A model generated the notes under the pieces. It was not told where the DNA came from. It made no database searches and saw nothing but the letters and a program-made list of their open reading frames with translations. A DNA stretch of 64,000 nt from the human T2T-CHM13v2.0 reference genome, Homo sapiens, in the NCBI RefSeq assembly GCF_009914755.1, contig NC_060939.1. One strand, written 5' to 3'. Shown one piece after another: positions 24,941 to 46,011 of this stretch (positions are counted from its first letter, which is position 1; each line of letters begins with the position of its first letter). Position numbers and translations under genes: made by a program.

Positions 24941-25096
24941 GTTTTTGTCTTAAAATTTTATTTTGCGTTTCTTGAAAACTATAGTATTAAAGGTATTGAT
25001 ACTGTGCAAATGCTGGGCATGCTTGGCATGAGATAATGTGTTTCATTTTTACAAAGTTGTGATATAACTATGCAAGTGTTTCTTAAAAGAACACAA

Positions 25097-25290
25097 GATT
25101 TTAAAAGTTATGGGATTAAAAAAGTTATGGGGTGAAAAAGTTATGGGATAAAAAATGTAAAAACGTTGTGGCAAAAAAACTTGTGGGAACAAAGTAGAAA
25201 ACAGTATTATGAAAAGTTACCAAAAAAGTTATGAAAAAGAAGTTACGGGATTCTTTTTTAAAAAGTCATGGAATAAAAATAAAAATTAAA
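25097..25290 (+). repeat. Degenerate A-rich tandem repeat (AAAAAGTTATGGG-like units)
   Basis: About 8-9 decayed units: aaaagttatggga, aaaaaagttatgggg, aaaaagttatggga, aaaacgttgtgg, aaaaaacttgtggg, aaaaaagttatg, aagaagttacggga, aaaagtcatgg. Confidence 0.85.
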
Positions 25291-26794
25291 AGCAGGCCCC
25301 TGTCAGCAAAGCCTGGAGAAGTGGGGCCGGAGTCTCCACCGCCACCATGTCCCTACCACCCCTTCCCAGGCACCCCTTTACAATTAGGGTAGCAGGACAA
25401 GACCTCTGTCTAATGGGGAAAGACAAACAGACCCTTTGCCACCCTGACCAGGGCTGAGTCCCTAAATTTCTGGATGATGATGATTGTTATTTAAGAGCCA
25501 GAGGCTGGTGGAGTTGGTTTGTTTGGAGGAGGCCTGATGTCCCCCTTACTCTCACCATAGCAACTTTTCCCTCAGGGGGGCTCCCTTCTTATTCAGAGAG
25601 GCAGGACAGTGGGGCTAACTGTGGACCAGGCGAGGGCACGGGCTGCTGGGGTGGCCCCCGTTCCCCGGTGTACACATTGTGTCTGTGTAAGGTTTTGTAT
25701 ATTCCAGAGGGTAGGGCCACCCCTGTGTCATACCTAGCTGAGGTTGGAGCCGGCACATGGGGAGGAGGTTGTAATAATTATTTGTGGCTGGGAAACTTAT
25801 TTATTGCTAGCATAGGACAGAGGAAGGAGGCGGGGATGGGGTCGTGGCTCCCTGGTGATGCGACTCCTGTTTATTTTGCTTTTTATTTTGGAATAAATGG
25901 ATTTAGCCATACTGCTCGGCCTGGTGTGTTTCCGTTTCCCTCACTGGGTCCTGGAGTTTGTGCCACCAAACAAGGAGTCCCAGAGTGTCTTGAGCATGTC
26001 CAGCTAGGCTGTTGGGGACCTTCCAGGCGTGTTACCTGTATGCTGCCTGGTGGCGCCTGGGGGATTCCAAGGGGACTGCCATGTAGTCTATGGGGCGCAG
26101 TCTGGCCCTGACAGCCAACAGGCTCAGAAGCCTGATCTAGCGGTGGCCGGGAAGACAGGTACCAGCACCTAAGGGCACTGACTTCCACCCAGCCCCGGCA
26201 TCTTCCGTTCTATCCCCTTGTCTCCCTCTCCTGTCTGCACCTGGTGGCCTGTTCTGTCTGTGCCTCCAGAGTGCCGGCTGCCCTGCAGGCTCCCTCTGGG
26301 CTGAGTTCATGGCCCTGCCCCCTGGTGGCCAGAGCCGGCTTCACAGGATAAGAGCCAGCTAAGCTCCAGGGGCTTTCCAGGAAAAGTGTCCCTTGGAAAG
26401 GGCATGGCCTTTTCACTGCTCCCAACAGCACCCTAGAAATGGCTTGGCCTTTCCCCTCCCCTGAGCTCCACAGAGAACACAGCCAGCAGAGGACACACTT
26501 CCCCGCCATCCAGAAGCGGGTTTGATTCTCAGCCAAGGGACAGCAGGACTGGTAGAGACTGTCAGGCCACACAGCTGCCTGCACAGCACTCCCATGCTTG
26601 GTGGGGGGGGGGGGCGGGAGGGATGGCGGGGTGTGTCTCTCCATAGGCTGGGCGTGACAGGGAGGCTCACTGAAGGTAGCGCACTTTGGAGGGGCAATGT
26701 CAGGGGTTAGCTTTCTCTTGTTTGGCCACAAGACTCCAAAAGGACAGCACGGTGACTGATTCCCAGCGCTAGAGGCGAGGCGGTTGGCCACATG

Positions 26795-26841
<47 letters not shown>

Positions 26842-27179
26842 ATATGGGTATTTGTAGATATTTCTAGAACAGGGCAGGGGCATACCACAGAGGGGGGCAC
26901 AAGTTTTCAGCAACGGTCACACCTGGATGTGTCAGCTCACCGCAACAATAGACGAAGTCACAGATGAAGGGGGCTGCCTTTGGGGCTGGGGGAGCCACTG
27001 CCAAGTCACAGAACAGCCGCCCAGGCAGGCTTGGAAAGGGAAGTCTCTGAGAAGAGGAGGAATCTGTTTAGAGGTCAAAGGGGGGCCTGGGGCTCTCAGG
27101 ATGGGATGGACTTGCCTGAGCCGATTGGCTGGCAGTTGGAGAGAAAGCAGAGAGAAGACAGGAGAGAGAAAAGCGAGCA

Positions 27180-27892
27180 TATCATCTCACACCAGTTAGA
27201 ATGGCAATCATTAAAAAGTCAGGAAACAACAGGTGCTGGAGAGGATGTGGAGAAATAGGAACACTTTTACACTGTTGGTGGGACTGTAAACTAGTTCAAC
27301 CATTGTGGAAGTCAGTGTGGCGATTCCTCAGGGATCTAGAACTAGAAATACCATTTGACCCAGCCATCCCATTACTGGGTATGTACCCAAAGGACTATAA
27401 ATCATGCTGCTATAAAGACACATGCACACGTATGTTTATTGCGGCATTATTCACAATAGCAAAGACTTGGAACCAACCCAAATGTCCAACAATGATAGAC
27501 TGGATTAAGAAAATGTGGCACATATACACCATGGAATACTATGCAGCCATAAAAAATGATGAGTTCATGTCCTTTGCAGGGACATGGATGAAATTGGAAA
27601 TCATCATTCTCAGTTAACTATCGCAAGAACAAAAAACCAAACACCGCATATTCTCACTCATAGGTGGGAATTGAACAATGAGAACACATGGACACAGGAA
27701 GGGGAACATCACACTCTGGGGACTGTTGTGGGGTGGGGGGAGGGGGGAGGGATAGCATTGGGAGATATACCCAATGCTAGATGACGATTTAGTGGGTGCA
27801 GCGCACCAGCATGGCACATGTATACATATGTAACTAACCTGCACATTGTCACATGTACCCTAAAACTTAAAGTATAATAATAATAATAAAAA
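27180..27892 (+). mobile_element. 5'-truncated young LINE-1 (L1PA2-like) with poly(A) tail and TSD
   Basis: ORF2 C-terminus ([30 protein letters not shown]...), L1 3' UTR, tail; TSD AAAAGCGAGCA at 27169-27179 and 27893-27903; 3' UTR AATGCTAGATGACGATTTAGTGGG lacks the L1HS ACA/ACG diagnostic. Confidence 0.92.
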
Positions 27893-29711
27893 AAAAGCGA
27901 GCAGAGAGCTGGTGAGGCAAGTGCAGAGCACAGGTGTGCCACAGCAGCTGTGGGAGGGCCAAGGAGTAAAGGGTGCACGTGCGGGTGTGGCAAGGTTCCT
28001 GGAAAAGAGGGGCTGGAAGGGAAAGGGGAGGAAGACAGAGGGAGGAGCCGGAGTTTCACAGGTAGTGCCTGGGGGCTGTGGCAGCCCTCCCCACCCCACA
28101 CGTGCTGGCCTCTTCCACGGCACCCAGTGCACCCACTGTTAAGACTGATGCTCAGCCCCTTTGGGCTTCCCTCTTCTCTGGTCACCGTGTCTTCCAACCC
28201 ACTTGTCCAGGGCCACCTCTCGCCTTGGGGAGCCCAAAACAACAGCCACCAGGCCTGATAGAGAAGAAACACTGCTTGAACCAGGATGATGAAGCTAAAA
28301 GGGATGGATGGGTGGAGTGATCGCCGGAGCCCCCTCTGGGGGGTCAGAAAGCCCAGGAACCCTTGAAGGGTCCCTGGGGGAGGAGAGGAGGGCATGCAGC
28401 TGGATGCCACTGGCTATAGACTTATAAGTCTAAGAGGGGAGCCTCAGCTTGTTGGGGGTTGCAGGTCGGATAGGTGAGGCTGGGCCCTTCCTGCTGGGAA
28501 AAGCAGAAGAGGGAGAGTCTATGGCAGGGGAGGTGGGTGGGCTTGTGGGGCGGAGGTCAGCTGGGCCAGCAGGCACTGTGGTCCCCTTGGCTGAATAGCA
28601 GAGGTGACCTCTAGGAGCAACACTCCAAGGTGCGTGAGCCTGCTGGCCAGCAATAGTGCTTCAGCGGGGGCCAGGGACCCTGCCTTCAGTCACACGCTAG
28701 CAGCTATGATGGTACCTGGGAGGGAGGGAAGGGGCCTGTGTTTCCTGCCTGGCCTGTGAGGTGTGTTGTGGGTTGACCGTGTGTATGGGACTCTCAAGGT
28801 TTTATCCTATCTCACCACTGCATTGCCGACAGATAGAGGAGGTGGGACTCTGACTATCACCCCTGCTCTGCAGTGGATTTGGCTCTCAGCACTCCCAGGC
28901 TGGGAGCTGGATGCCCTGCCCTGGCAGCATGACTCAGACTGCCCAACAGGTGCGGTGTGCACAGGAGGACTATCCTAGGACTCTGGCCGCCTCAGAGTAC
29001 AGCCCCACACACCACCCCCTCTAAGCTCTCAGCCCTTACACCATAAACCACGAGCTCTGTGACGGCTCCAGGGAGCACCCATGTCTACCAGCGTGGGCAC
29101 GGAGCCTGTTCCAAGAGTCCCCAGGCTCAGCCATGGGGGCTGGGGGGCTTTGGGGCCGTGGGAGCCAGCCTTGGTACCTGCATCCGGCAAGGACGCTCTG
29201 CACCTGCAGGCAGGAGTTGTCCACGGGCCCCCATGTGCGTGCTGATGGTGGTCGTGTTGATGTCGCCGATGATGCCGAGTGCCTCCTTCAGCACGTGGTA
29301 CATGCGCAGCATCTCGTCGCGCCACTGTGCCTGCTCTGCCGACTCTTCCATCAGCGTTTTCTGGTCCCCACGTGAGTACAGGTTGGACAGCAGCTCCGAG
29401 AAGATGAACTCCTTGGTCTGAGAGCGGGCAAAGAGGGAAGGAGGTTGGGACCTGATGCCTTTGCTGCCCTGGCCTCCTGCCGGGCCCTGCTGGGACTGTG
29501 TGCTGGACTTGGAGCCCTGAGTATGGCTTTTCAGACGCGGCTTCTACACCGCTTAGACTCAAAGATCTGCCTCCCCACCGCCCTTTTCTCACTCAGATAG
29601 GGACACTGAGGTCCAAAGGAAAAGTCACCTGTCCAAGGTCACACATCTGGGAGGGGACCCAGGACCTATCATGCCACCAGGACACCGGTCTACTCAGTTT
29701 CTTAAAAATGT

Positions 29712-30003
29712 TTTTTGGAGATAGGATCTTGCTCTGTCGCTAGGCTGGAGGACAGTGGGCGAGATCACCACTCACTGTAGCCTCAACTTCTTGGGCTCAA
29801 AGTGATCCTCCAATGTCAGCCTGTAGAGTAGCTAGGACTATAGGTACGTGCCACCACCAAGCCCAGCTATTTTTAAAATTTTAGTGTAGAGATCAGGTCT
29901 CACTATGTTGCCCAAGCTGGTCTCGAACTCCTGGGCTCAAGCTATCCTCTTGCCTTGGCCTCCCAAAGTGCTGGGATTACAGACATGGGCCACTGTCCCC
30001 AGT
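29712..30003 (-). mobile_element. AluJ in DNM1P intron
   Basis: Antisense Alu with CTCCTGGGCTCAAG. Confidence 0.88.
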
Positions 30004-30839
30004 CCCACGTTATATTTCTATGAGACAGCTCTGGTCTGGACTGTGCCTCCCTCCCTGGACCTTGGTCCCATAGGGCTGGTCAGCATCTCCCCCAGGCCAA
30101 CATGGCCACCTGCATCCCCAGTGCTACAGGAGCCCCCTGCCCCTATGAGGCGGTGCATGCACGTTGTTGATCATGACGTGCATGATGGTCTTGGGCATGA
30201 CACCAACCATGAGGTCCCACACGGTCTTGTTGACAATGGCCATGTAGGAGGCCACAAGGTTCTGGGTGGTTTCCATTTGCCGCTCCAGCTATGGGTCCAT
30301 GGAGTGCATGAAGCTGTCGGAGCCATTCTCCTCAGCCTTGCTGTCCTGTCATGGAGAACACAGTGGCATCAGGGTGGCCAGGCCATGCAGCCAGGCTCCA
30401 GGAATCCCTAGGATCTCAGCACCTCCAAGGGTACCTGGAACATTGAGGCACAGAGAAAAACAACTGGCGTGAACATGCACCGAGCTCCCCACACGCTCTA
30501 GACGGTTTCAGGTATCTGCCTCTCAGGACCCCAGACTCCCCTGATTCAGTCTCCTCTTAGTTCTGACTCTAGTGCCCAGAATCTGCCTCAAGTTACCAAT
30601 CCAGAAATTGGAAAAAAACATCTCCAGGTCCCCTGTTGGAGACCTGGCCAGAGCTTGTGCCAGGCTGCAGACGCCTGGCAGGGGGCAAGAAAGGGGCATA
30701 CTCACTTTCCCCTTGTCCTGGGAGGCCCATGCACCAACACTGCCACCGCCGCCGCCACCAGGGAACACGACAAAGTAGACACACACAGAGAGGAAAACGG
30801 GAAGGGTTGAGTGAACCTGGGACACTGCACCCCAACTTT

Positions 30840-31572
<733 letters not shown>

Positions 31573-31609
31573 TTGGGACAGGGACACACACACACACACA
31601 CACACAGAG

Positions 31610-32615
31610 TTGGTGGTTGTGCCGCCCAGTCGCGAGTGTGAGGAAGGGACCAGATCGGTCGGGCAGAAAGGTGCTGGGTCAAGAGAGGAGGGGGCAGCCG
31701 GTAGCGCGGGCACGCCGGGTGCGCGCGGGGCGCGCCGGGTTGAGGGGTGAGGGGTGAGGGGTAAGAGGTGAGGGGCGACGAGGACCGGGGCGGGGTAGGG
31801 GCAGCCCTTTCCCAGGCGGTAGCGGGGGCAGTGGTGCTGTTGCCCTTTTAAACTGCGGCTTGACGGGAGCCGCGCCTCCTGTCGGTGGAGTCGGTTATAA
31901 AGGGAGCAGCCCCGCAGGCCGCCACATAGCTCCCGCCAAGTCCTCGGTGCCCCTTGCCATTTTCCAGCCGCGCTCCCACGAGGGTCACGGCGGCGGGGAG
32001 AGGTGGAGCCGCGAGAGCTCGGCCGGGGGCCCCGCCTGGTGGTCGCGGCCATGACAGCGGCTCGGGACAGGCTCCTTTTCCGCGCCCCTCCCGCCGGAGG
32101 TGAGGGGAAGATGTCCATGTCCGGGTTCAAGGCCAAACCGAAGTTACTGGCCTCTATCTTCCAGGAGAACCAGGAGCCACAGCCGCGGCTCACGCCCCAC
32201 CGCAACATTAAGGTGAGTCGCCGGGTGGCGGCCTGGCGGGGCAGGGCGAGGGCGGAAAGCGGGTGCCCAGAGTCCCAGGAGAAAGGGGAAGCTGCCCCAG
32301 AGAGGCCGCGGTTCCCCGCCCCTTTCTCCCGCAACTGGCCCGCCCGGCAAGGCAGAGGCTTGGGTGGGAGAAGGCGGAGGGCGCGTCTCTCCAACTCCTA
32401 GCGCGGGGCTGGCTTGGGGGCTGCTGGCCCCTCTCGGCCCCTGTCGCTGCGCCTCGAGGTGGGAGCCCGCGGCTGCGGGAGCCCTCTTGGGACCCATGGT
32501 CGCCCTCAGTCAGCCCACCTGCTCTAGGGACCGCGACAGGGCGGGGCAGGGCGGCTCCCGCGTTGTTGGAGCCCAGGCGGGGAAGGGGAAAGGCCTTTAA
32601 GATTTTCGGTTTTTT

Positions 32616-32640
<25 letters not shown>
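31610..32640 (+). promoter_or_regulatory. CpG island promoter (UBE2Q2-derived) for the ULK4P/FAM7A cassette
   Basis: Very GC/CpG-rich ~1 kb; GC boxes; TATAAA at 31896-31901; strong donor AAG|GTGAGT at 32212/32213. Confidence 0.85.
32111..32212 (+). pseudogene. UBE2Q2P: UBE2Q2 exon-1 remnant with internal in-frame deletion (3' part of FAM7A exon D, ~31916-32212)
   Basis: MSMSGFKAKPKLLASIFQENQE-PQPRLTPHRNIK|gt aligns to the remembered UBE2Q2 N-terminus [22 protein letters not shown]...PPPLTLHCNIT. Confidence 0.82.
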
Positions 32641-33251
<611 letters not shown>

Positions 33252-33390
33252 TCTGTTTTGTTTTATACATGTAATATATTCACAAGTATCTTTACGAAGT
33301 GATTTTGATACTCTTTTGTCTTCTCCCTAGAATCTCTTTGTTCTGTAATAATTCTTTCTTAGTTTATATTGATCTTATTTTCCTTTTTAA

Positions 33391-33756
<366 letters not shown>

Positions 33757-33757
33757 T

Positions 33758-33944
33758 GATTCTATATTATAGTGAGTTGTACAATTATTTCATTATATGT
33801 TACAATGTAATAATAATAGAAATAAAATGCACAATAAATGTAATGTCCTTGAATCATCCCAAAATCATCTCCCCCAACCTTGTCTGTGGAAAAATTGTCT
33901 TCTGCAAAACTGGCTCCTGATGCCAAAAAGTTTGGGGACTGCTG
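33758..33944. mobile_element. MER1-type DNA transposon fragment
   Basis: CAATGTAATAATAATAGAAATAAAATGCACAATAAATGTAATG...CCAAAAAGTTTGGGGACTGCTG. Confidence 0.8.
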
Positions 33945-33949
33945 GCATA

Positions 33950-35500
<1,551 letters not shown>

Positions 35501-35736
35501 GAATGCAGACCTACTTTGAATTAATTCTAAGTAATTTTTATGCTACTTATTGGTTGACAAATATAATTGCTTTTAGTTTTTAACTGTAGTTTTGATGTAA
35601 TGTGAACTGTATTTGGACCTTGTGAAGCTTATTTCTGCTTTGAAATTTAGTATAAATTGGTTATAATAAAATCTGACTGTGCTAATTTTTTGGTTATGTG
35701 AAATAGAAAATCAATGTAAATTTAAAAATTTATTCT

Positions 35737-39627
<3,891 letters not shown>

Positions 39628-39912
39628 TTCTTTTTCTTTTTTAAATATCTTTTTCTGTATTAATTCATGACTGTTTTTTTCTTGTCTCATTGGGAACATT
39701 AGTGTGGTTTAGAACAATGTAAGGGTTTTTGGATTCATGTTTATTTTCTAGATAGACAGCATTTTATATAGATGATTTAGCTGTTTTTCATAATGGAGCT
39801 AATTCTTTTTGTGAGTTCATATGTCTGGCAGTGTAACTTTATTATGCTAAGTTTGATGTGCATTGGCGCATTTTCAAAATGGGCTTTCTAGAACAATTTG
39901 TGATATCTTTCC

Positions 39913-40138
39913 CAGGGGTGTCCAGTCTTTTGGCTTCCCTGGGCCACACTGGAAGAAGAATTGTCTTGGGCCACACATAAAATACACTAACAATAGCTGA
40001 TGAACTAAAAAACCAATAAAAAAAAATTGCAAAAAAATTCTTACAATGTTTTAAGAGAGTTTATGAATTTGTGTTGGGCCATATTCAAAGCCGTCTTGGG
40101 CCGCATCCAGCCCACGGGCTGCGGGTTGGACAAGCTTG
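39913..40138. mobile_element. MER30 DNA transposon
   Basis: CAGGGGTGTCCAGTCTTTTGGCTTCCCTGGGCCACAC...GGGTTGGACAAGCTTG. Confidence 0.88.
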
Positions 40139-40376
40139 CTTTACACAATATTCTGTGTTTCCTTTTTTCCTCTTATAACCATATTTGATAGTTTATGGGA
40201 AGCCTTCATCAGTGGAAATTTTTGTGTTTAACTTTTAATTCTAAACTACTTTTAGAGAAAAGATTAAAAAATAGTTGAGAACTCCTGTATAGCTTTTGCC
40301 CAGCTGCTCTTAATGTTCACATCTTATAGGTCTATAGTATAGTTAGCAAAACCTGGGAATTAACATTGGTATAGTG

Positions 40377-40511
40377 TTAGTCAGGCGGGATAATCCTTAC
40401 CTGTGCCTCCTTTTGGAGGGCAGCAGAATGTGGTAGTTGGAGTTGCATGATACTTGATTCATATCTCTGTGTAATGATGGCATGCAATACCCTGACTGCT
40501 CCTTTCGAATT
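40377..40511 (+). pseudogene. U8 snoRNA (SNORD118)-like pseudogene
   Basis: GTCAGGCGGGATAATCCTTACCTGTGCCTCCTTTTGGAGGGCAG...TTGGAGTTGCATGA...TGCAATACCCTGACTGCTCCT is colinear with full-length U8; box C (TGGTAG) and box D (TCGA) are degenerate. Confidence 0.88.
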
Positions 40512-40661
40512 CTTCCTGAAAAGGGAAAAATAAAACATGAGAATAGTGCTGCTAACTACCAAATGCATTTGAATTTTACCGGTTGCCTCTAATGTCCTCT
40601 TTTTTTTTGTTCCAGGATCCCACATTACAGTTAGTTGTTATGCCTCCTTAGTCTCATATAG

Positions 40662-41022
<361 letters not shown>

Positions 41023-44000
41023 CTTTGTATGTTTTTGTAATACATGTTATAAAACGTATGACTCAAGTCCTTGACACTTTGAAGAGTAACTGGTTGGGTG
41101 TTTTGAAGAATGTCCCTTAATTTAGGTTTGTCTAAGGGTTTCTCATGACTCGAATGAGATTATGAATTTGGATTATGAGATTAGAATGAGAATATGCATT
41201 TTAGTAAGAATACTACAGTAAATACAGTAATGCTGGTTACTTAATTAGTAAAGGTTTTAAAAATATTACATATAGAAGTTTTGCAGAAGTTAGGTATAGA
41301 AATGATGGTTGAATTTTTAATTAAAAGTCTCAAGATGCAGTATCTGGCTGTCCTAAGCTCATGGATCCAACTACATGGTTTCTTCACATTTCTCAAATAA
41401 ATTATGCACTTTCCAATTCATGCTATTATGGCTTCCTTGAATGGTGTCTTCTCTGATATAATCATAAAGTTCTAGCCATCCTTCAAGACCGCAACCCACC
41501 TTCTACCTCTTCCGTAAACCCGGTGTCAACTATATCAAGTAAAGTGCTTGCTGTATTCTCTAAACTACTATTTACAAAAAAAATTCTTTCTGTCCAGGGT
41601 TTTGTCTGTAGTTATGTCCTGCCTCTTTTGAATTGTGAAATATTTTCTTGTTTATCAAATGTTTGTCTCATCTTCCCAACCAGAAAGTCAGCTCGCTGAA
41701 AATAGGATTGTGTCTTTTATATCTTTGTATCCCCCTTAGCACTTGACATAGAGCCTTACCTTGGCAGGTAAGCAATAGATATTTGTTGAAAGACTGAATT
41801 TCTAATTAGACGTAAATTACCTAAAAAGTAAGCCAGGATGGGGTGAATTTTTTCTTTGAAGCTTTATTTTATTACAGATATCAATTGAAATGATTTTAAA
41901 AAATAAATTATTATCTATATATGTATGTTTTAATCTGAAAAGGCATCGTTCTTTTTGTTTTTGGTAACAAATTTTACACATTCTTTTTTTGTCCTCATTG
42001 ATTTATTATCTGATATAAGGGACATATAAGGAGACAGATATCCATCTTTAAAATTGCCTCAAAAGTTTTTTTTTTTTTTAACCACAGATAATGAAACAAC
42101 CACCATCGGTTAAATTTGATGCAAAAATATTGCATCTACCAGCATTTTCAGGTAGGATCATAAAGGACTTATCGAACATGTAGACTGTCTGTATACAGAT
42201 ACGAATATGAAATTTATTCACAAATGGAATATTTGTATGTGAACAACTAAATTTATTTTGTCTTGACAATTGGTTATATTCTTGGGTCAGTGTTATGTGA
42301 ATTGTAAATAATCTGTAATTCATTTGTGCCAGCTGTTGACATTTCTCAGCTGAGTCTGGGCTGCCCTGTCCTCTTGTGAGTGGGGAGGTTCCTGTAGATC
42401 TGGGCAAGTTTTCCTGTAGAGTGGGTGGGGGGCCTCCTCCCTTCCGTTCATAGAGCTGGTTGAATTTCCACCATTTATGGCAGGTGTAGGTGCACAGGGT
42501 TGGGGACAACAAGGAAGGATTGGGATTCTATTGGCGGGACCAGGACATTTGAGAACGGGACTAGGTGGTTCATGACTGTGGAGATGGTGTGGGAGTGGAG
42601 ATACTTAAGGGATAATTATTACATTTCTGTTGAGCTAATGAAAATCTTATTTACGGTGAAAGTCAGAAATTTTTACATACCTTAAACTTTTTTTTTTTTA
42701 ACAAATTATATTTTAAGCTGTTAAACTCAATTTGGGGAAAATTATTCATTGTGGCTAGAGTAGAATCTATGATTTGAAGTAAATTTAAAATATATTTAGG
42801 TTTAAATAAACCAGCTAAGGGTTTATATCAGTCAACTTAATTAGTGATAAAAACAACCAAAAAAACCTGTGTAGAAGGACGTTTTTGAAAGACCAAAGTG
42901 AAGCAAAATATTAATAGTGCTTTCAGTGCCAAGTAGGTCTATTTATGCAAACCTAGAGAATTATTATTGGGAAATACTATTTCCTTTTTCTTCTTTGAGT
43001 TACTTAGGAAATTATATTTACAATTTCTTTGTCTAAAGATTGAGATCAGCAAAAACATGTTAGCAAAAAATTTTAGGGAGTATCACATTTCCTAGATTTT
43101 GCCCTTTTTTTATAGGGATTTGGAGGTAGGAATTTCAGGTGATTTTAGCTATCATGTTATCCTCGTTATTTTTTTACAGTAATTTCATTGGAACTTTTTA
43201 ATAACTGTGTGGTTTGTGCTTTTCTCAATATCTGAGAGTTGATTTATTTATACAAAGGCTTTTTTGTCTTTTACTCCAGTTGTATTGAACTTTGCATTTT
43301 GTTATAATCTAGGTTGTGAGACAATTCTGCTTTAGACATCTGCTTGGTTTGAAAGCATAGTTTTCCATTGAAGTGTTTAAAAAGTTTCCATGGATAGATA
43401 AAGAGATGAGGAATATAGAAGGACAAATAGAAGTAGTGTCATCTTTGGAGTATTTTTGGTGTTGACAGAGTAATGTTTTCTTTGTCCTCATCTTAGCTGT
43501 CGTAACTCTGTGTTTATTTCTCATGTAATGTTTCCAGCAGTTGTTTTTCTCATCATCATACTTTTGTTATTTTCTTTCCTTGGCAATGGATAAGTTATAA
43601 TTTCTGAAAGACCAAGATTGGAATGACTTTTTGTAACAAGTGTGCTCGCAGATCGACTCCAGTGAGAAGAGCTCGGGGACCTCCTGAGCCAAGCTTAATC
43701 TCCTTTGCTGTTTGTGAGTGGTGGCTGGTCACCAGGAGGTGGCCACCAGGCTCCTCCTTTCCCCGCTGGTAGGCCTCTGTGACATGACTTATGCATTTAA
43801 ATTTATGTTTTTTATAGAGGCTCAAACAAGTGCTAAAATAGCAATTTGATTTAACTACCATGAAAAAACTGATTTATCACGATTTTAGGTTTATGCAAAT
43901 TATCCTCTGCTTAATCCTTACGTCTTAAAGTAGATAAGAGTAGACGGTGATTTTGAACTTTTTGTTGTTGTTGTTGTTTGTAATACTCAGGTTTCCATTT

Positions 44001-44040
44001 TATGTTAACTTGTAAGATTTTTAAAAAATATGTGAAATCA

Positions 44041-44395
<355 letters not shown>

Positions 44396-46011
44396 GTGAT
44401 ATCATAAGACAGACCTTTTCCCTTCTCATCAGTGACTGGAATTAACTGCCCATGTGGAACGGGTTGTGGGTGTTGGTTCCTTTACTGGGTCATCTGGTAA
44501 ACTGCAAGGTTTCTGCTGTGACATTGAAGGCAGACATCAACCCTCTAAGACATTTTTTTCCTATCCTCTGGGAATATTACTTTTTGGACAATCTTGGTCC
44601 ATTGGTAAGCTCATGGGAATTTGTCAGAGTTTTTTTGTTTCTTTTGGCTCATGTTTAGCATCGATTGGCAGAGTGTTTGGAGTCATCCTCAGAAAGGAAT
44701 TACAGTGGTTCGGAGGTGTTTTCTGTAGTGGGCCCTCATTTGGGAATTGGCTTGAAAAAAATGTAAGTTCACTTGCTTCCAGGATGGTATTAAGATTGCT
44801 TTTTTTGATAGTTGGCGTGTGTCTATCAGGTAAGGGCTGTCATTTAGAGAATATAAAGTGGTAGGAGAAACTAAAAGTACTGTTCTTAGTTTTTATTTTA
44901 ATCTTATTCATATACAAGTGCCTTTGTAATTTAGCAAATATCATTTTTGGTGTACAGTATAAATTTCCTTTTTATAAAGATCTGAGTTTTTAACTTTGCT
45001 GTCACTTTCTGTGTTTCATGACTTAAATATTTTAATTTTTTCTTTTTTTACATTTACATTTTTTATTCTAGTTCCAATTGCTAATCCAGCATTTGTGGAT
45101 AGCTGCAAACTGCGATATGTAAGTAACATTTACATTTTAAAAATTATTTCTCATGGTTTTATTAAGTAGTTACAGCATACATATTTATCAAAAGCAGAGT
45201 CCTAAGTAATTATCATAAATTTTTCTGATGTAATGATGAATCTACTCATAGGCAATTTTTATGGGCATTCCAATTATAAACTTTAGAATATTTAAAAATA
45301 GCCCTTCTCCTAATATAGATACGATTCTGGGATTATCTAAGCTACTCCTGGAAACTTTATTAACTGTTGTTGTTTTTTTATTTTCGTAGAGACAAGGTCT
45401 CTCACTATGTTGCCCAGGCTGGTTTCCAACTCCTGGGCTCAAGTGATTCTCCCATCTCTGACTCCCAAAGTGTTAGGATTACAGACGTGAGCCACTGCGC
45501 CAGGCTAACTGTTACTGTTTTGAGTATTGGTTATAAAATACTTCAACCCTGATCCCTGTGTATTAATTTAGTTATACTTCCTCAAAGTTTCCCTTGGGCA
45601 CCCTTATCTGTCCCTATGTAGCACATAGCTTCCCTATGATGTTATTTATAATCTAATGAGATTAATTATGATTTATAAACTCCCGATGGAAGGAAGTGTC
45701 CTTACTTTTTATAGAAGCAACATACCAGGTGGAAAGCACCGTAGATCAAGTGTTAGAAGGCTCTGGGTTCCTGTTGCCTATAAGACTTGGCCAAATGATT
45801 ATCTTTTTCTCAATCTCTGTTTCCTGGGGAGTGTGGGTGGGACAAGGAAATGGCATAGGTTTAGGATTCAGACAGACCTGGGTGTGGATCAAAGATCTGC
45901 TTTCTGGGCCAATTACTTTAATTGCTGAGCCGCAGTTTCCTCATCTGTAAAATTGGGATGGGATAACTACTTGATAGATTTTTGGTAATTATTCAACTTT
46001 GAATGTGGTAA

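What the first reader, a model, noticed from the sequence alone, without database searches (positions are those of the whole stretch)
31916..32218. FAM7A/CHRFAM7A first exon (exon D) and promoter look like a captured UBE2Q2 exon 1
Seen: ATG 32111 to donor 32212 encodes MSMSGFKAKPKLLASIFQENQEPQPRLTPHRNIK. This matches both ends of the remembered UBE2Q2 N-terminal segment ([22 protein letters not shown]...PPPLTLHCNIT) with ~26 codons deleted in frame. As I recall, exon D has been described as of unknown origin while A, B, C and E come from ULK4. Inference: the cassette, and the human-specific CHRFAM7A fusion built from a copy of it, is driven by a borrowed UBE2Q2 CpG-island promoter, making it a three-gene chimera and possibly explaining broad, non-neuronal expression.
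Basis: partly seen in the sequence, partly recalled or inferred. Interest (0 to 1): 0.85.

Follow-up and report, generated by a model that had tools for sequence, protein, structure and literature searches.

The report
CHRFAM7A first exon is UBE2Q2-derived
The promoter and first exon used by the FAM7A cassettes and by the human-specific gene CHRFAM7A are an old, degraded copy of the start of the ubiquitin-enzyme gene UBE2Q2, so CHRFAM7A is built from pieces of three genes.

Summary
Window 32111-32212 is a 34-codon ORF ending at a GT donor. About 1 kb around it (31626-32605) is colinear with UBE2Q2 from -237 to +821 of its TSS. That covers the core promoter, exon 1 and the start of intron 1, with one exact 78-nt (26-codon) in-frame deletion. 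The UBE2Q2 ATG maps to 32111 and its exon-1 donor to 32212. CHRFAM7A (5 of 5 RefSeq models) and ULK4P1/2/3 use that donor.

The interpretation needs correcting. This was not a direct capture from UBE2Q2. All 15 other duplicated copies I aligned share the same deletion and boundaries. These include the 5' ends of UBE2Q2P1/P6/P11/P13/P16, two chrY "CHRFAM7AP" loci and a copy next to GOLGA8B. Exon D is therefore exon 1 of an old UBE2Q2-pseudogene duplicon, cut after a shared Alu pair and joined through repeats to ULK4-derived sequence. Two reviews call exon D "homologous to GOLGA8B". I found no similarity to GOLGA8 gene bodies, only a paralogous copy 9.8 kb from GOLGA8B. No searched paper links CHRFAM7A or CHRNA7 to UBE2Q2. 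In CHRFAM7A mRNA the inherited ATG opens a 76-codon upstream ORF. Any effect on expression pattern is untested.

The parts
27845..30966 (-). DNM1P50, head-to-head neighbour of the UBE2Q2-derived island. The order GOLGA - DNM1P(-) - island(+) recurs at the other duplicon copies.
   Evidence: RefSeq annotation given with the finding. One search shows the same neighbours at other copies. One search shows colinear homology of window 25001-27177 and 27905-29136 to the UBE2Q2P6/P16/P11 loci at 83-85%.
31266..31607 (.). Masked repeat (Alu-like, 31266-31570) plus a CA-repeat, which form the 5' edge of the UBE2Q2-derived segment.
   Evidence: Masked-repeat rows, sequence, and start of parent homology at 31626.
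31626..32605 (+). Segment homologous to UBE2Q2 -237..+821: core promoter, exon 1 and the first 421 nt of intron 1. It is a CpG island (GC 0.70, CpG o/e 0.76).
   Evidence: homology; composition.
31785..31859 (+). Best-conserved promoter block, 89-93% identical across 7 lineage representatives. It lies about 25-100 nt upstream of the position equivalent to the UBE2Q2 TSS (31884).
31751..31767 (+). ULK4P2 annotated first exon (upstream TSS). Its donor lies in a short GGGGTGA-like tandem stretch that the parent lacks.
   Evidence: RefSeq annotation.
31897..31903 (+). TATAAAG motif found only in the 4 FAM7A copies; the 12 other aligned rows have C, G or other bases here. It lies 21-27 nt upstream of the position equivalent to the CHRFAM7A NM_139320.2 TSS (31924).
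   Evidence: Its function is inferred.
31924..32212 (+). Exon D as used by CHRFAM7A NM_139320.2 (289 nt, mapped from the 100%-identical CHRFAM7A copy). Longer forms start at the equivalent of 31803.
32111..32212 (+). Remnant of the UBE2Q2 start codon and exon-1 coding sequence, 34 codons. The 78-nt deletion site is at 32177/32182.
32165..32212 (+). Short form of exon D (ULK4P2, ULK4P1, CHRFAM7A XM_054379105.1). The acceptor ...ttccag|g exists only in the FAM7A copies; the others read CAC at that codon and the parent GAC.
32213..32214 (+). GT donor, homologous to the UBE2Q2 exon-1 donor.
32613..33249 (.). Pair of Alu-like repeats. They are shared colinearly with the GOLGA8B-adjacent, LOC400464 and UBE2Q2P13 copies, and partly with the LINC02249 and LOC102724078 copies. 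This is the last sequence FAM7A shares with the UBE2Q2P duplicon.
33250..34337 (.). Junction interval made of interspersed repeats: a masked Alu-like repeat at 33424-33761, a dispersed repeat at 33760-34245, and the start of another Alu-like repeat.
34338..45300 (+). ULK4-derived sequence (chr3:41913299-41923959, minus strand, 83-92% identity), carrying exon C (38482-38606) and the exon B/A region. The homology begins inside an Alu-like repeat. The far end was not mapped.

Best explanation
Window 31626-32605 is a degraded copy of the UBE2Q2 5' end: about 240 bp of core promoter, exon 1 with its start codon and splice donor, and 0.4 kb of intron 1. It reached this place as part of an old chromosome-15 duplicon (GOLGA - DNM1P - UBE2Q2P). 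That duplicon had already lost 78 nt of exon 1 and had gained an Alu pair at +821. In the FAM7A lineage the duplicon was cut just after that Alu pair and joined, through about 1.1 kb of interspersed repeats, to a duplicated piece of ULK4. The retained CpG island now supplies the transcription start sites, the first exon (exon D) and the donor that splices to ULK4-derived exons C, B and A. In CHRFAM7A those exons splice on to CHRNA7 exons 5-10. The inherited UBE2Q2 start codon is not the start of the dup-alpha7 protein. It opens a 76-codon upstream ORF that stops at the beginning of exon B, 28 nt before the annotated start codon and in the same frame. Shown: the homology, boundaries, shared deletion, annotated TSS and donor use, and the ORF layout. 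Inferred: that promoter activity is inherited from UBE2Q2, that the upstream ORF dampens translation, and that the junctions were repeat-mediated.
For: Homology: searches give colinear matches with E 6e-81 and 1.9e-82.

Landmarks: the UBE2Q2 TSS, ATG and donor map to 31884, 32111 and 32212.

Shared derived characters: the 78-nt deletion is present in 15 of 15 aligned non-parent copies. UBE2Q1 exon 1 and UBE2Q2P9 keep the stretch, so the deletion is derived. All 10 other loci compared show the same +821 break (parent chr15:73715026-73715036). Seven of the 10 gave a scoring match at the 5' end, starting at -243/-248 in five and at -195 in two; the chrY, LOC400464 and UBE2Q2P13 loci gave no 5' match above my cut-off. 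Eight of the 10 continue into UBE2Q2 intron 1 from +3409, while FAM7A does not.

Context: the neighbours GOLGA, DNM1P and CSPG4P recur at the copies, and CSPG4, DNM1P35, GOLGA6EP and DNM1P49 lie beside the parent.

Tree: the 4 FAM7A copies form a 100/100 clade on a long stem (0.11), with the GOLGA8B-adjacent copy as weakly supported sister (84/85).

Use as promoter and first exon: 10 of 13 non-parent chr15 copies examined carry a same-strand annotated transcript start. The homologous donor is used by UBE2Q2 (11 of 15 models), CHRFAM7A (5 of 5), ULK4P1/2/3, LINC02249 (1 of 1) and LOC102724078 (19 of 19).

CpG island kept: GC 0.70 and CpG o/e 0.76, despite non-CpG K2P of 0.177 to the parent.

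ULK4 origin of the rest.

Upstream ORF. Dougherty 2018 (PMC6169893, passages) also notes shorter upstream ORFs and a lost ancestral promoter.

Published promoter: a review passage places a ~2 kb leukocyte promoter upstream of and overlapping exon D (PMC8998457).
Against: Identity to the parent is low: 72-75% by blastn and 79% over ungapped MAFFT columns. Individual factor-binding sites may therefore not be conserved, and conservation along the segment is rather flat, as expected for neutral drift.

Annotated FAM7A/CHRFAM7A start sites lie 39-44 nt downstream or 73-114 nt upstream of the UBE2Q2 TSS equivalent, not on it.

Only about 240 bp of upstream sequence is UBE2Q2-derived. Beyond that come an Alu, a CA-repeat and DNM1P sequence. 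The published ~2 kb promoter is therefore mostly not UBE2Q2-derived.

A TATAAA motif and a new acceptor are FAM7A-specific.

Three of 13 copies have no annotated transcript.

No expression, CAGE, ChIP, methylation or ribosome-profiling data were available here. The sister relation to the GOLGA8B-adjacent copy is weakly supported. One duplicated copy (5' of UBE2Q2P12) was not aligned.
Confidence: 0.88

Rival explanations
1. Direct capture: a piece of the functional UBE2Q2 gene at 15q24 was copied straight into the FAM7A cassette, and the 26-codon deletion arose there.
For: The parent gene is on the same chromosome and the homology is colinear.
Against: The same 78-nt deletion is present in 15 of 15 other aligned copies. 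The +821 break is present in all 10 loci compared with the parent, and the 5' end starts at -243/-248 or -195 in the 7 of 10 that gave a scoring 5' match. FAM7A is closer to those copies (82-85%) than to the parent (79%). It shares an Alu pair and the upstream DNM1P/GOLGA context with them.
Confidence: 0.04
2. Published attribution: exon D (and exon F) derive from the golgin gene GOLGA8B.
For: [quoted passage not shown] The closest non-FAM7A paralog (84-85%) lies 9.8 kb beyond the 3' end of GOLGA8B, with DNM1P5 between them.
Against: The whole-genome search finds no match inside any GOLGA8 gene body. Sensitive blastn (word size 7) of the segment against GOLGA8Q, the GOLGA8H 5' end and the GOLGA8B 3' end with DNM1P5 gave nothing better than a 19-nt match at E 0.008. 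The GOLGA8B-adjacent copy is itself UBE2Q2 promoter, exon 1 and at least 8.9 kb of intron 1.
Confidence: 0.02
3. UBE2Q2 ancestry is real but regulation is not borrowed. Transcription of FAM7A/CHRFAM7A would depend mainly on features gained after the capture: the FAM7A-specific TATAAA, the upstream Alu/DNM1P divergent unit and the local SD chromatin. The UBE2Q2 origin would then say little about expression pattern.
For: TATAAA is present only in the 4 of 4 FAM7A copies, 21-27 nt upstream of one RefSeq TSS equivalent. Start sites are offset from the UBE2Q2 TSS equivalent. Only ~240 bp of upstream sequence was carried. Identity to the parent is 72-79%. The published promoter fragment is ~2 kb.
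Against: The best-conserved block lies just upstream of the TSS cluster. Ten of 13 copies in different surroundings carry annotated transcript starts. CpG-island character is retained in all copies.
Confidence: 0.25
4. Chance resemblance between two GC-rich CpG islands.
For: Both sequences are about 70% GC, and three weak GC-rich hits on chr7 appear.
Against: E-values of about 1e-81 in a whole-genome search, colinearity over 1 kb, and exact mapping of ATG and donor.
Confidence: 0.01

Closest known systems
UBE2Q2 pseudogene duplicon copies on chr15 (UBE2Q2P1, P6, P11, P13, P16, LOC400464)
   Same: They share the same 1-kb element, with the same 78-nt deletion and the same break at +821. The 5' edge near -240 was seen in the four of these six loci that gave a scoring 5' match; LOC400464 and UBE2Q2P13 did not. 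They have the same GOLGA/DNM1P neighbours. Several are transcribed from this element.
   Different: Those copies continue into UBE2Q2 intron 1 and, per RefSeq, later UBE2Q2 exons. FAM7A stops after the Alu pair at 33249 and continues with ULK4 sequence. FAM7A alone has the TATAAA and the 32165 acceptor.
chrY 'CHRFAM7AP1' and 'CHRFAM7AP2' (RefSeq pseudogene names)
   Same: They are homologous to exon D and its promoter (79-82%) and carry the deletion.
   Different: In the tree they sit inside the UBE2Q2P1/P6/P11/P16 clade (100/100), not with FAM7A. They are therefore UBE2Q2P exon-1 copies rather than copies of CHRFAM7A. They have no ULK4 or CHRNA7 part nearby in the annotation.
LINC02249 and LOC102724078 first exons (15q13)
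   Same: Other copies of the same element act as first exon and use the homologous donor.
   Different: Their downstream exons are unrelated to ULK4. Eighteen of 19 predicted LOC102724078 models run antisense into the CHRNA7 span.
5'-truncated duplicate genes in human segmental duplications that acquire a foreign promoter or first exons (Dougherty et al. 2018, PMC6169893, passages read)
   Same: CHRFAM7A is cited there as a 5'-truncated paralog that lost its ancestral promoter and has a multi-exon 5' UTR with upstream ORFs.
   Different: In the passages I read, that paper does not say where the replacement promoter came from. Here it is traced to UBE2Q2.

Membership tests
UBE2Q2-derived (UBE2Q2P) duplicon, 5' module | Colinear nucleotide homology to the UBE2Q2 promoter, exon 1 and intron 1 | tested here: met
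   window 31626-32605 matches UBE2Q2 -237..+821, E about 1e-81 for each half.
UBE2Q2-derived (UBE2Q2P) duplicon, 5' module | Shared derived 78-nt deletion in exon 1 | tested here: met
   present in the 4 FAM7A copies and 11 other copies and absent in the parent; the stretch is present in UBE2Q1 and UBE2Q2P9.
UBE2Q2-derived (UBE2Q2P) duplicon, 5' module | Shared boundaries (5' edge near -240, break at +821 followed by Alu) | tested here: met
   The +821 break is seen in all 10 other loci compared. The 5' edge was seen in 7 of them: -243/-248 in five and -195 in two. The chrY, LOC400464 and UBE2Q2P13 loci gave no scoring 5' match. One search shows the Alu pair shared to 33249.
UBE2Q2-derived (UBE2Q2P) duplicon, 5' module | GOLGA and DNM1P neighbours upstream in the same order and orientation | tested here: met
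Full UBE2Q2 pseudogene | Downstream UBE2Q2 intron 1 / exon 2 onward | tested here: not met
   no parent homology after +821 in the window. ULK4 homology starts at 34338.
GOLGA8B-derived exon (literature attribution) | Sequence similarity to a GOLGA8 gene body | tested here: not met
   none. There is only a paralogous UBE2Q2P copy 9.8 kb from the GOLGA8B 3' end.
CpG-island promoter | High GC and CpG observed/expected over at least several hundred bases (usual thresholds, GC above 0.5-0.55 and o/e above 0.6, are recalled) | tested here: met
   1003 nt, GC 0.698, o/e 0.76, 91 CpGs.
CpG-island promoter | Transcription start sites inside the island | tested here: met
   RefSeq models only: equivalents of 31751, 31803, 31924 and 31936. 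One CHRFAM7A model (XM_054379105.1) starts upstream of the aligned segment. No CAGE data here.
CpG-island promoter | Measured promoter activity | not testable with these tools
   A review passage reports a ~2 kb promoter overlapping exon D that is active in leukocytes (PMC8998457). The primary paper was not read.
Regulatory upstream ORF | AUG upstream of the main start, in-frame stop before it | tested here: met
   ATG at mRNA position 188 (an in-frame one also at 128), stop at 416-418, annotated start at 446.
Regulatory upstream ORF | Ribosome occupancy and an effect on main-ORF translation | not testable with these tools
   No data available.

The most novel reading that the evidence does not exclude
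The UBE2Q2P 5' module may be a portable promoter-plus-first-exon cassette that chromosome-15 duplications have plugged into unrelated downstream sequence at least three times. The three cases are FAM7A/CHRFAM7A, LINC02249, and a predicted lncRNA running antisense across the 3' half of CHRNA7. If so, a promoter descended from a ubiquitin-enzyme gene would shape where and how much CHRFAM7A is expressed. The inherited UBE2Q2 start codon would act as a built-in translational brake on dup-alpha7. The alpha7 locus would then be flanked by UBE2Q2-derived transcription units acting on it in both sense (dominant-negative subunit) and antisense.
Probability: 0.3. Interest if true: 0.6.

Novelty: new member of a known kind. 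Interest (0 to 1): 0.45.

Why it matters
CHRFAM7A is a much-studied human-specific gene that modulates the alpha7 nicotinic receptor. Its regulation outside neurons is of clinical interest. The reviews I could read ascribe its first exon to GOLGA8B or treat FAM7A as simply ULK4. The evidence here shows instead that the promoter and first exon descend from UBE2Q2 through a pseudogene duplicon. That gives a concrete, testable basis for promoter studies: which conserved blocks matter, what the FAM7A-specific TATAAA does, and whether the inherited upstream ORF limits translation.

It also suggests two annotation changes. The chrY "CHRFAM7A pseudogenes" group with UBE2Q2P copies, and exon D should not be attributed to GOLGA8B. 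Finally, it adds a clear case of one promoter module being reused by several chimeric transcripts within segmental duplications. It does not change what is known about the protein.

Tried and rejected
Dating with a clock. Non-CpG K2P is 0.117 to the nearest paralog and 0.177 to the parent. With a generic primate rate (recalled, about 1e-9 per site per year) that gives implausibly old ages. Transitions are about equal to transversions, and the sequence is a GC-rich segmental duplication, so I give no date. The only dates quoted are from the 2026 preprint (passages).

Conservation footprint. I looked for exon-versus-intron differences in conservation and found a rather flat profile. I therefore make no claim of purifying selection.

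A fourth unique source in the junction. Window 33760-34245 turned out to be a dispersed repeat with many genomic copies. I did not classify it further.

Extent of ULK4 homology beyond 45300. One search returned only the CHRFAM7A match, because few candidates were scored. The distal end of the ULK4-derived part is not mapped.

Protein database and Atlas searches. I did not run them. The only unspliced peptide is 34 residues, and the length filter would have excluded UBE2Q2 itself.

Literature. CHRFAM7A + UBE2Q2 gave 0 papers. UBE2Q2 + CHRNA7 gave 2, judged irrelevant from their titles and abstracts. A six-term search needing any two of UBE2Q2, CHRNA7, ULK4, FAM7A, ULK4P3, ULK4P1 gave 96 papers, of which 30 were listed; the only ones containing UBE2Q2 were two lncRNA survey papers. 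UBE2Q2 + segmental duplication + GOLGA gave 4 (3 listed), none about FAM7A by title. In Makoff and Flomen 2007, a term search found FAM7A in a single passage, which calls it "an unrelated sequence", and found no occurrence of UBE2Q. Sinkus 2015, cited by one of the two reviews for the GOLGA8B statement, is not held. I did not look up Gault 1998 or Riley 2002. Those three are known to me only through citations or recall, so an earlier statement of the UBE2Q2 link in them cannot be excluded. Supplementary files were not opened.

Identity of "exon F". I could not see any paper's coordinates for it. Linking it to the upstream exons at 31751-31767, or to the exon of XM_054379105.1 whose donor maps to 31670, is my guess.
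Full report
**Observation**

RefSeq places UBE2Q2 exon 1 at chr15:73714215-73714614 with the CDS starting at 73714435.

blastn of window 31000-34000 against the UBE2Q2 5' region gives two colinear matches. Window 31626-32177 matches the parent at -237..+286 relative to the TSS, at 72% identity. Window 32182-32605 matches +369..+821, at 75%. The whole-genome E-values are 6e-81 and 1.9e-82.

The pairwise alignment shows one 78-nt gap, which is 26 codons in frame. In the 16-row alignment the UBE2Q2 TSS, ATG and last exon-1 base map to window 31884, 32111 and 32212.

**What else carries this element**

The genome search listed 23 matches:
- four copies at about 100%: this window (ULK4P2), CHRFAM7A, ULK4P1 and ULK4P3;
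- twelve further copies at 79-84%, ten on chr15 and two on chrY;
- the parent, in two pieces;
- two extra pieces belonging to two of the chr15 copies;
- three weak GC-rich hits on chr7.

The annotation shows what the twelve copies are. Some are the 5' ends of UBE2Q2P1, P6, P11, P12, P13, P16 and LOC400464 (described as a "UBE2Q2 pseudogene"). Others are the first exons of LINC02249 and LOC102724078, the chrY loci named CHRFAM7AP1 and CHRFAM7AP2, and an unannotated copy 9.8 kb beyond the 3' end of GOLGA8B.

Most copies sit in the same order: GOLGA6L or GOLGA8, then DNM1P on the opposite strand, then this element. The parent gene has CSPG4, DNM1P35, GOLGA6EP and DNM1P49 upstream. These are the genes whose pseudogenes travel with the duplicon.

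**Direct capture or inherited pseudogene exon**

I aligned 15 duplicated copies plus the parent. The copy 5' of UBE2Q2P12 was left out because my fetch was cut short. All 15 carry exactly the same 78-nt gap. UBE2Q1 exon 1 and UBE2Q2P9 on chr3 match across the stretch that is missing. The gap is therefore a deletion that happened once, in the ancestor of the duplicon.

I compared 10 other loci with 24 kb of the parent:
- All 10 break at +821.
- Seven gave a scoring match at the 5' end. It starts at -243 or -248 in five of them and at -195 in two. The chrY, LOC400464 and UBE2Q2P13 loci gave no 5' match above my cut-off.
- Eight then resume at parent +3409 and run on through intron 1. The GOLGA8B-adjacent copy reaches +8895. 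The LINC02249 and LOC102724078 copies do not continue.

FAM7A shares an Alu pair inserted at +821 (window 32613-33249) with the GOLGA8B-adjacent, LOC400464 and UBE2Q2P13 copies. After that it departs from them.

FAM7A is 82-85% identical to the other copies and 79% identical to the parent over ungapped columns. In the maximum-likelihood tree rooted on the parent, the four FAM7A copies form a 100/100 clade on a long stem of 0.11. The GOLGA8B-adjacent copy is their sister with weak support (84/85). The chrY loci fall inside the UBE2Q2P1/P6/P11/P16 clade, which has 100/100 support.

Exon D is therefore exon 1 of a UBE2Q2-pseudogene duplicon. It was not taken directly from UBE2Q2.

**The junction and the other sources**

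After 33249 come a masked Alu-like repeat (33424-33761), a dispersed repeat (33760-34245, many genomic copies) and another Alu-like repeat. ULK4 homology begins inside that last repeat, at window 34338 = chr3:41923959, with 92% identity.

Exon C (38482-38606) and the exon B/A region (41905-45300, 90% to chr3:41913299-41916638) lie in ULK4-derived sequence. The stretch shared with CHRFAM7A ends at window 47664. Beyond that point CHRFAM7A carries CHRNA7 exons 5-10 (RefSeq description).

The three-source description of CHRFAM7A is thus correct at the sequence level. The junctions lie in repeats, which suggests repeat-mediated joining but does not prove it.

**How it most likely works**

RefSeq start sites of the FAM7A-type transcripts map to window 31751, 31803, 31924 and 31936. 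These lie within about 115 nt of the UBE2Q2 TSS equivalent at 31884. One further CHRFAM7A model (XM_054379105.1) starts upstream of the aligned segment. The best-conserved block, 31785-31859, is 89-93% identical across seven lineage representatives and lies just upstream.

The homologous donor is used widely:

| Gene | RefSeq models using the donor |
|---|---|
| UBE2Q2 | 11 of 15 |
| CHRFAM7A | 5 of 5 |
| ULK4P1, ULK4P2, ULK4P3 | 1 of 1 each |
| LINC02249 | 1 of 1 |
| LOC102724078 | 19 of 19 (predicted models) |

Ten of 13 non-parent chr15 copies examined have a same-strand annotated transcript start in or at the element.

All copies keep CpG-island character, with GC 0.68-0.70 and CpG o/e 0.66-0.87. 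FAM7A has 0.70 and 0.76. This holds although only 53 of 115 parental CpGs survive in the window and non-CpG divergence from the parent is 0.177. That fits an island kept unmethylated in the germ line, but this is inference.

A review passage places a ~2 kb leukocyte promoter upstream of and overlapping exon D (PMC8998457). I conclude that the UBE2Q2-derived island provides the core promoter, first exon and donor.

Two FAM7A-specific changes may have retuned it:
- A TATAAAG at 31897-31903 is present in 4 of 4 FAM7A copies and in none of the 12 other rows. It lies 21-27 nt upstream of the NM_139320.2 TSS equivalent.
- A new acceptor at 32165 gives the 48-nt short form of exon D, which skips the inherited ATG.

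**The inherited start codon**

In NM_139320.2, assembled from its annotated exons, the UBE2Q2-derived ATG lies at mRNA position 188. It opens a 76-codon ORF. An in-frame ATG at position 128 (window 32051) would extend this to 96 codons. The ORF runs through exons D and C and stops at 416-418, at the start of exon B. That is 28 nt before the annotated start at 446, and in the same frame.

This is an upstream ORF and not part of dup-alpha7. Dougherty et al. 2018 already remarked on a multi-exon 5' UTR with shorter upstream ORFs. That it lowers translation is inference.

**Results that cut against the functional reading**

- Identity to the parent is low.
- The conservation profile is fairly flat, as for neutral drift.
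- Only about 240 bp upstream of the TSS is UBE2Q2-derived.
- Start sites are offset from the parental one.
- Three of 13 copies have no annotated transcript.
- No expression, chromatin or ribosome data were available.

The claim that UBE2Q2 ancestry explains the broad expression of CHRFAM7A is therefore untested.

**Comparison with what is known**

[quoted passage not shown] I found no similarity between the segment and any GOLGA8 gene body. The likely source of the statement is the paralogous copy beside GOLGA8B, which is itself UBE2Q2 promoter, exon 1 and intron 1.

In Makoff and Flomen 2007, a term search found FAM7A in a single passage, which calls it "an unrelated sequence". A 2024 review and a 2026 preprint write "FAM7A/ULK4". 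The preprint places the juxtaposition of FAM7A with neighbouring duplicons at more than 15.2 MYA, and the coalescence of the human FAM7A copies at 0.8-1.4 MYA. The latter fits the 0.5% or lower divergence among the four copies.

Searches for CHRFAM7A + UBE2Q2 (0 papers), UBE2Q2 + CHRNA7 (2 papers, irrelevant by title and abstract) and two broader ones found no statement of the UBE2Q2 link. Sinkus 2015 is not held, and I did not look up Gault 1998 or Riley 2002. Supplements were closed. Prior mention cannot be excluded.

**Verdict**

The finding is a real and apparently unreported correction to the stated origin of the CHRFAM7A first exon and core promoter. Mechanistically it is an ordinary product of segmental-duplication mosaicism, a new member of a known kind. 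Interest is moderate.

Noticed in passing
chr15:30136904-30137849 (locus L007 5905-6850), outside the window: Another copy of the UBE2Q2P exon-1 module is the first exon of LOC102724078. All 19 predicted models use the homologous donor. Eighteen of 19 extend about 187 kb antisense into the CHRNA7 span, and their last exon overlaps a CHRNA7 exon. These are predicted XR models only.
   Followed up: partly
chrY:24656387-24657429 and chrY:26276337-26277379 (L013, L014): The loci named CHRFAM7AP2 and CHRFAM7AP1 are copies of the UBE2Q2P exon-1 module. They group with UBE2Q2P1/P6/P11/P16 (100/100) and not with FAM7A, so the name looks misleading.
   Followed up: partly
window 31897-31903: A TATAAAG motif is present only in the four FAM7A copies; the parent and 11 other copies differ at the third base or more. 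It lies 21-27 nt upstream of one RefSeq TSS equivalent.
   Followed up: partly
window 32160-32166: A FAM7A-specific change (CAC, or GAC in the parent, to CAG) creates the acceptor used by the 48-nt short exon D in ULK4P1, ULK4P2 and one CHRFAM7A model. Those transcripts skip the inherited ATG.
   Followed up: partly
window 31740-31775: A short GGGGTGA-like tandem stretch, absent from the parent and poorly conserved among copies, supplies the GT donor of the 17-nt ULK4P2 first exon.
   Followed up: no
L015 (chr15:97.57 Mb) and L016 (chr15:99.50 Mb): The LOC400464 and UBE2Q2P13 copies carry an Alu-like insertion inside the promoter block. Their annotated start sites map to window 32383 and 32355. 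The first coincides with, and the second lies 28 nt from, the equivalent of the UBE2Q2 alternative first-exon TSS of NM_001145335.1 at 32383.
   Followed up: no
window 31610-32612 versus all copies: The substitution spectrum is unusual: transitions are about equal to or fewer than transversions at both CpG and non-CpG sites. This made clock dating unsafe.
   Followed up: no
chr15:28438246-28441686, about 40 kb beyond the window: A further partial copy of the ULK4-derived exon B/A region at 92-94% identity, distinct from the four FAM7A cassettes.
   Followed up: no
window 40378-40510: A RefSeq U8 snoRNA copy sits in the ULK4-derived part, and each FAM7A cassette has one at the same offset (annotation).
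   Followed up: no
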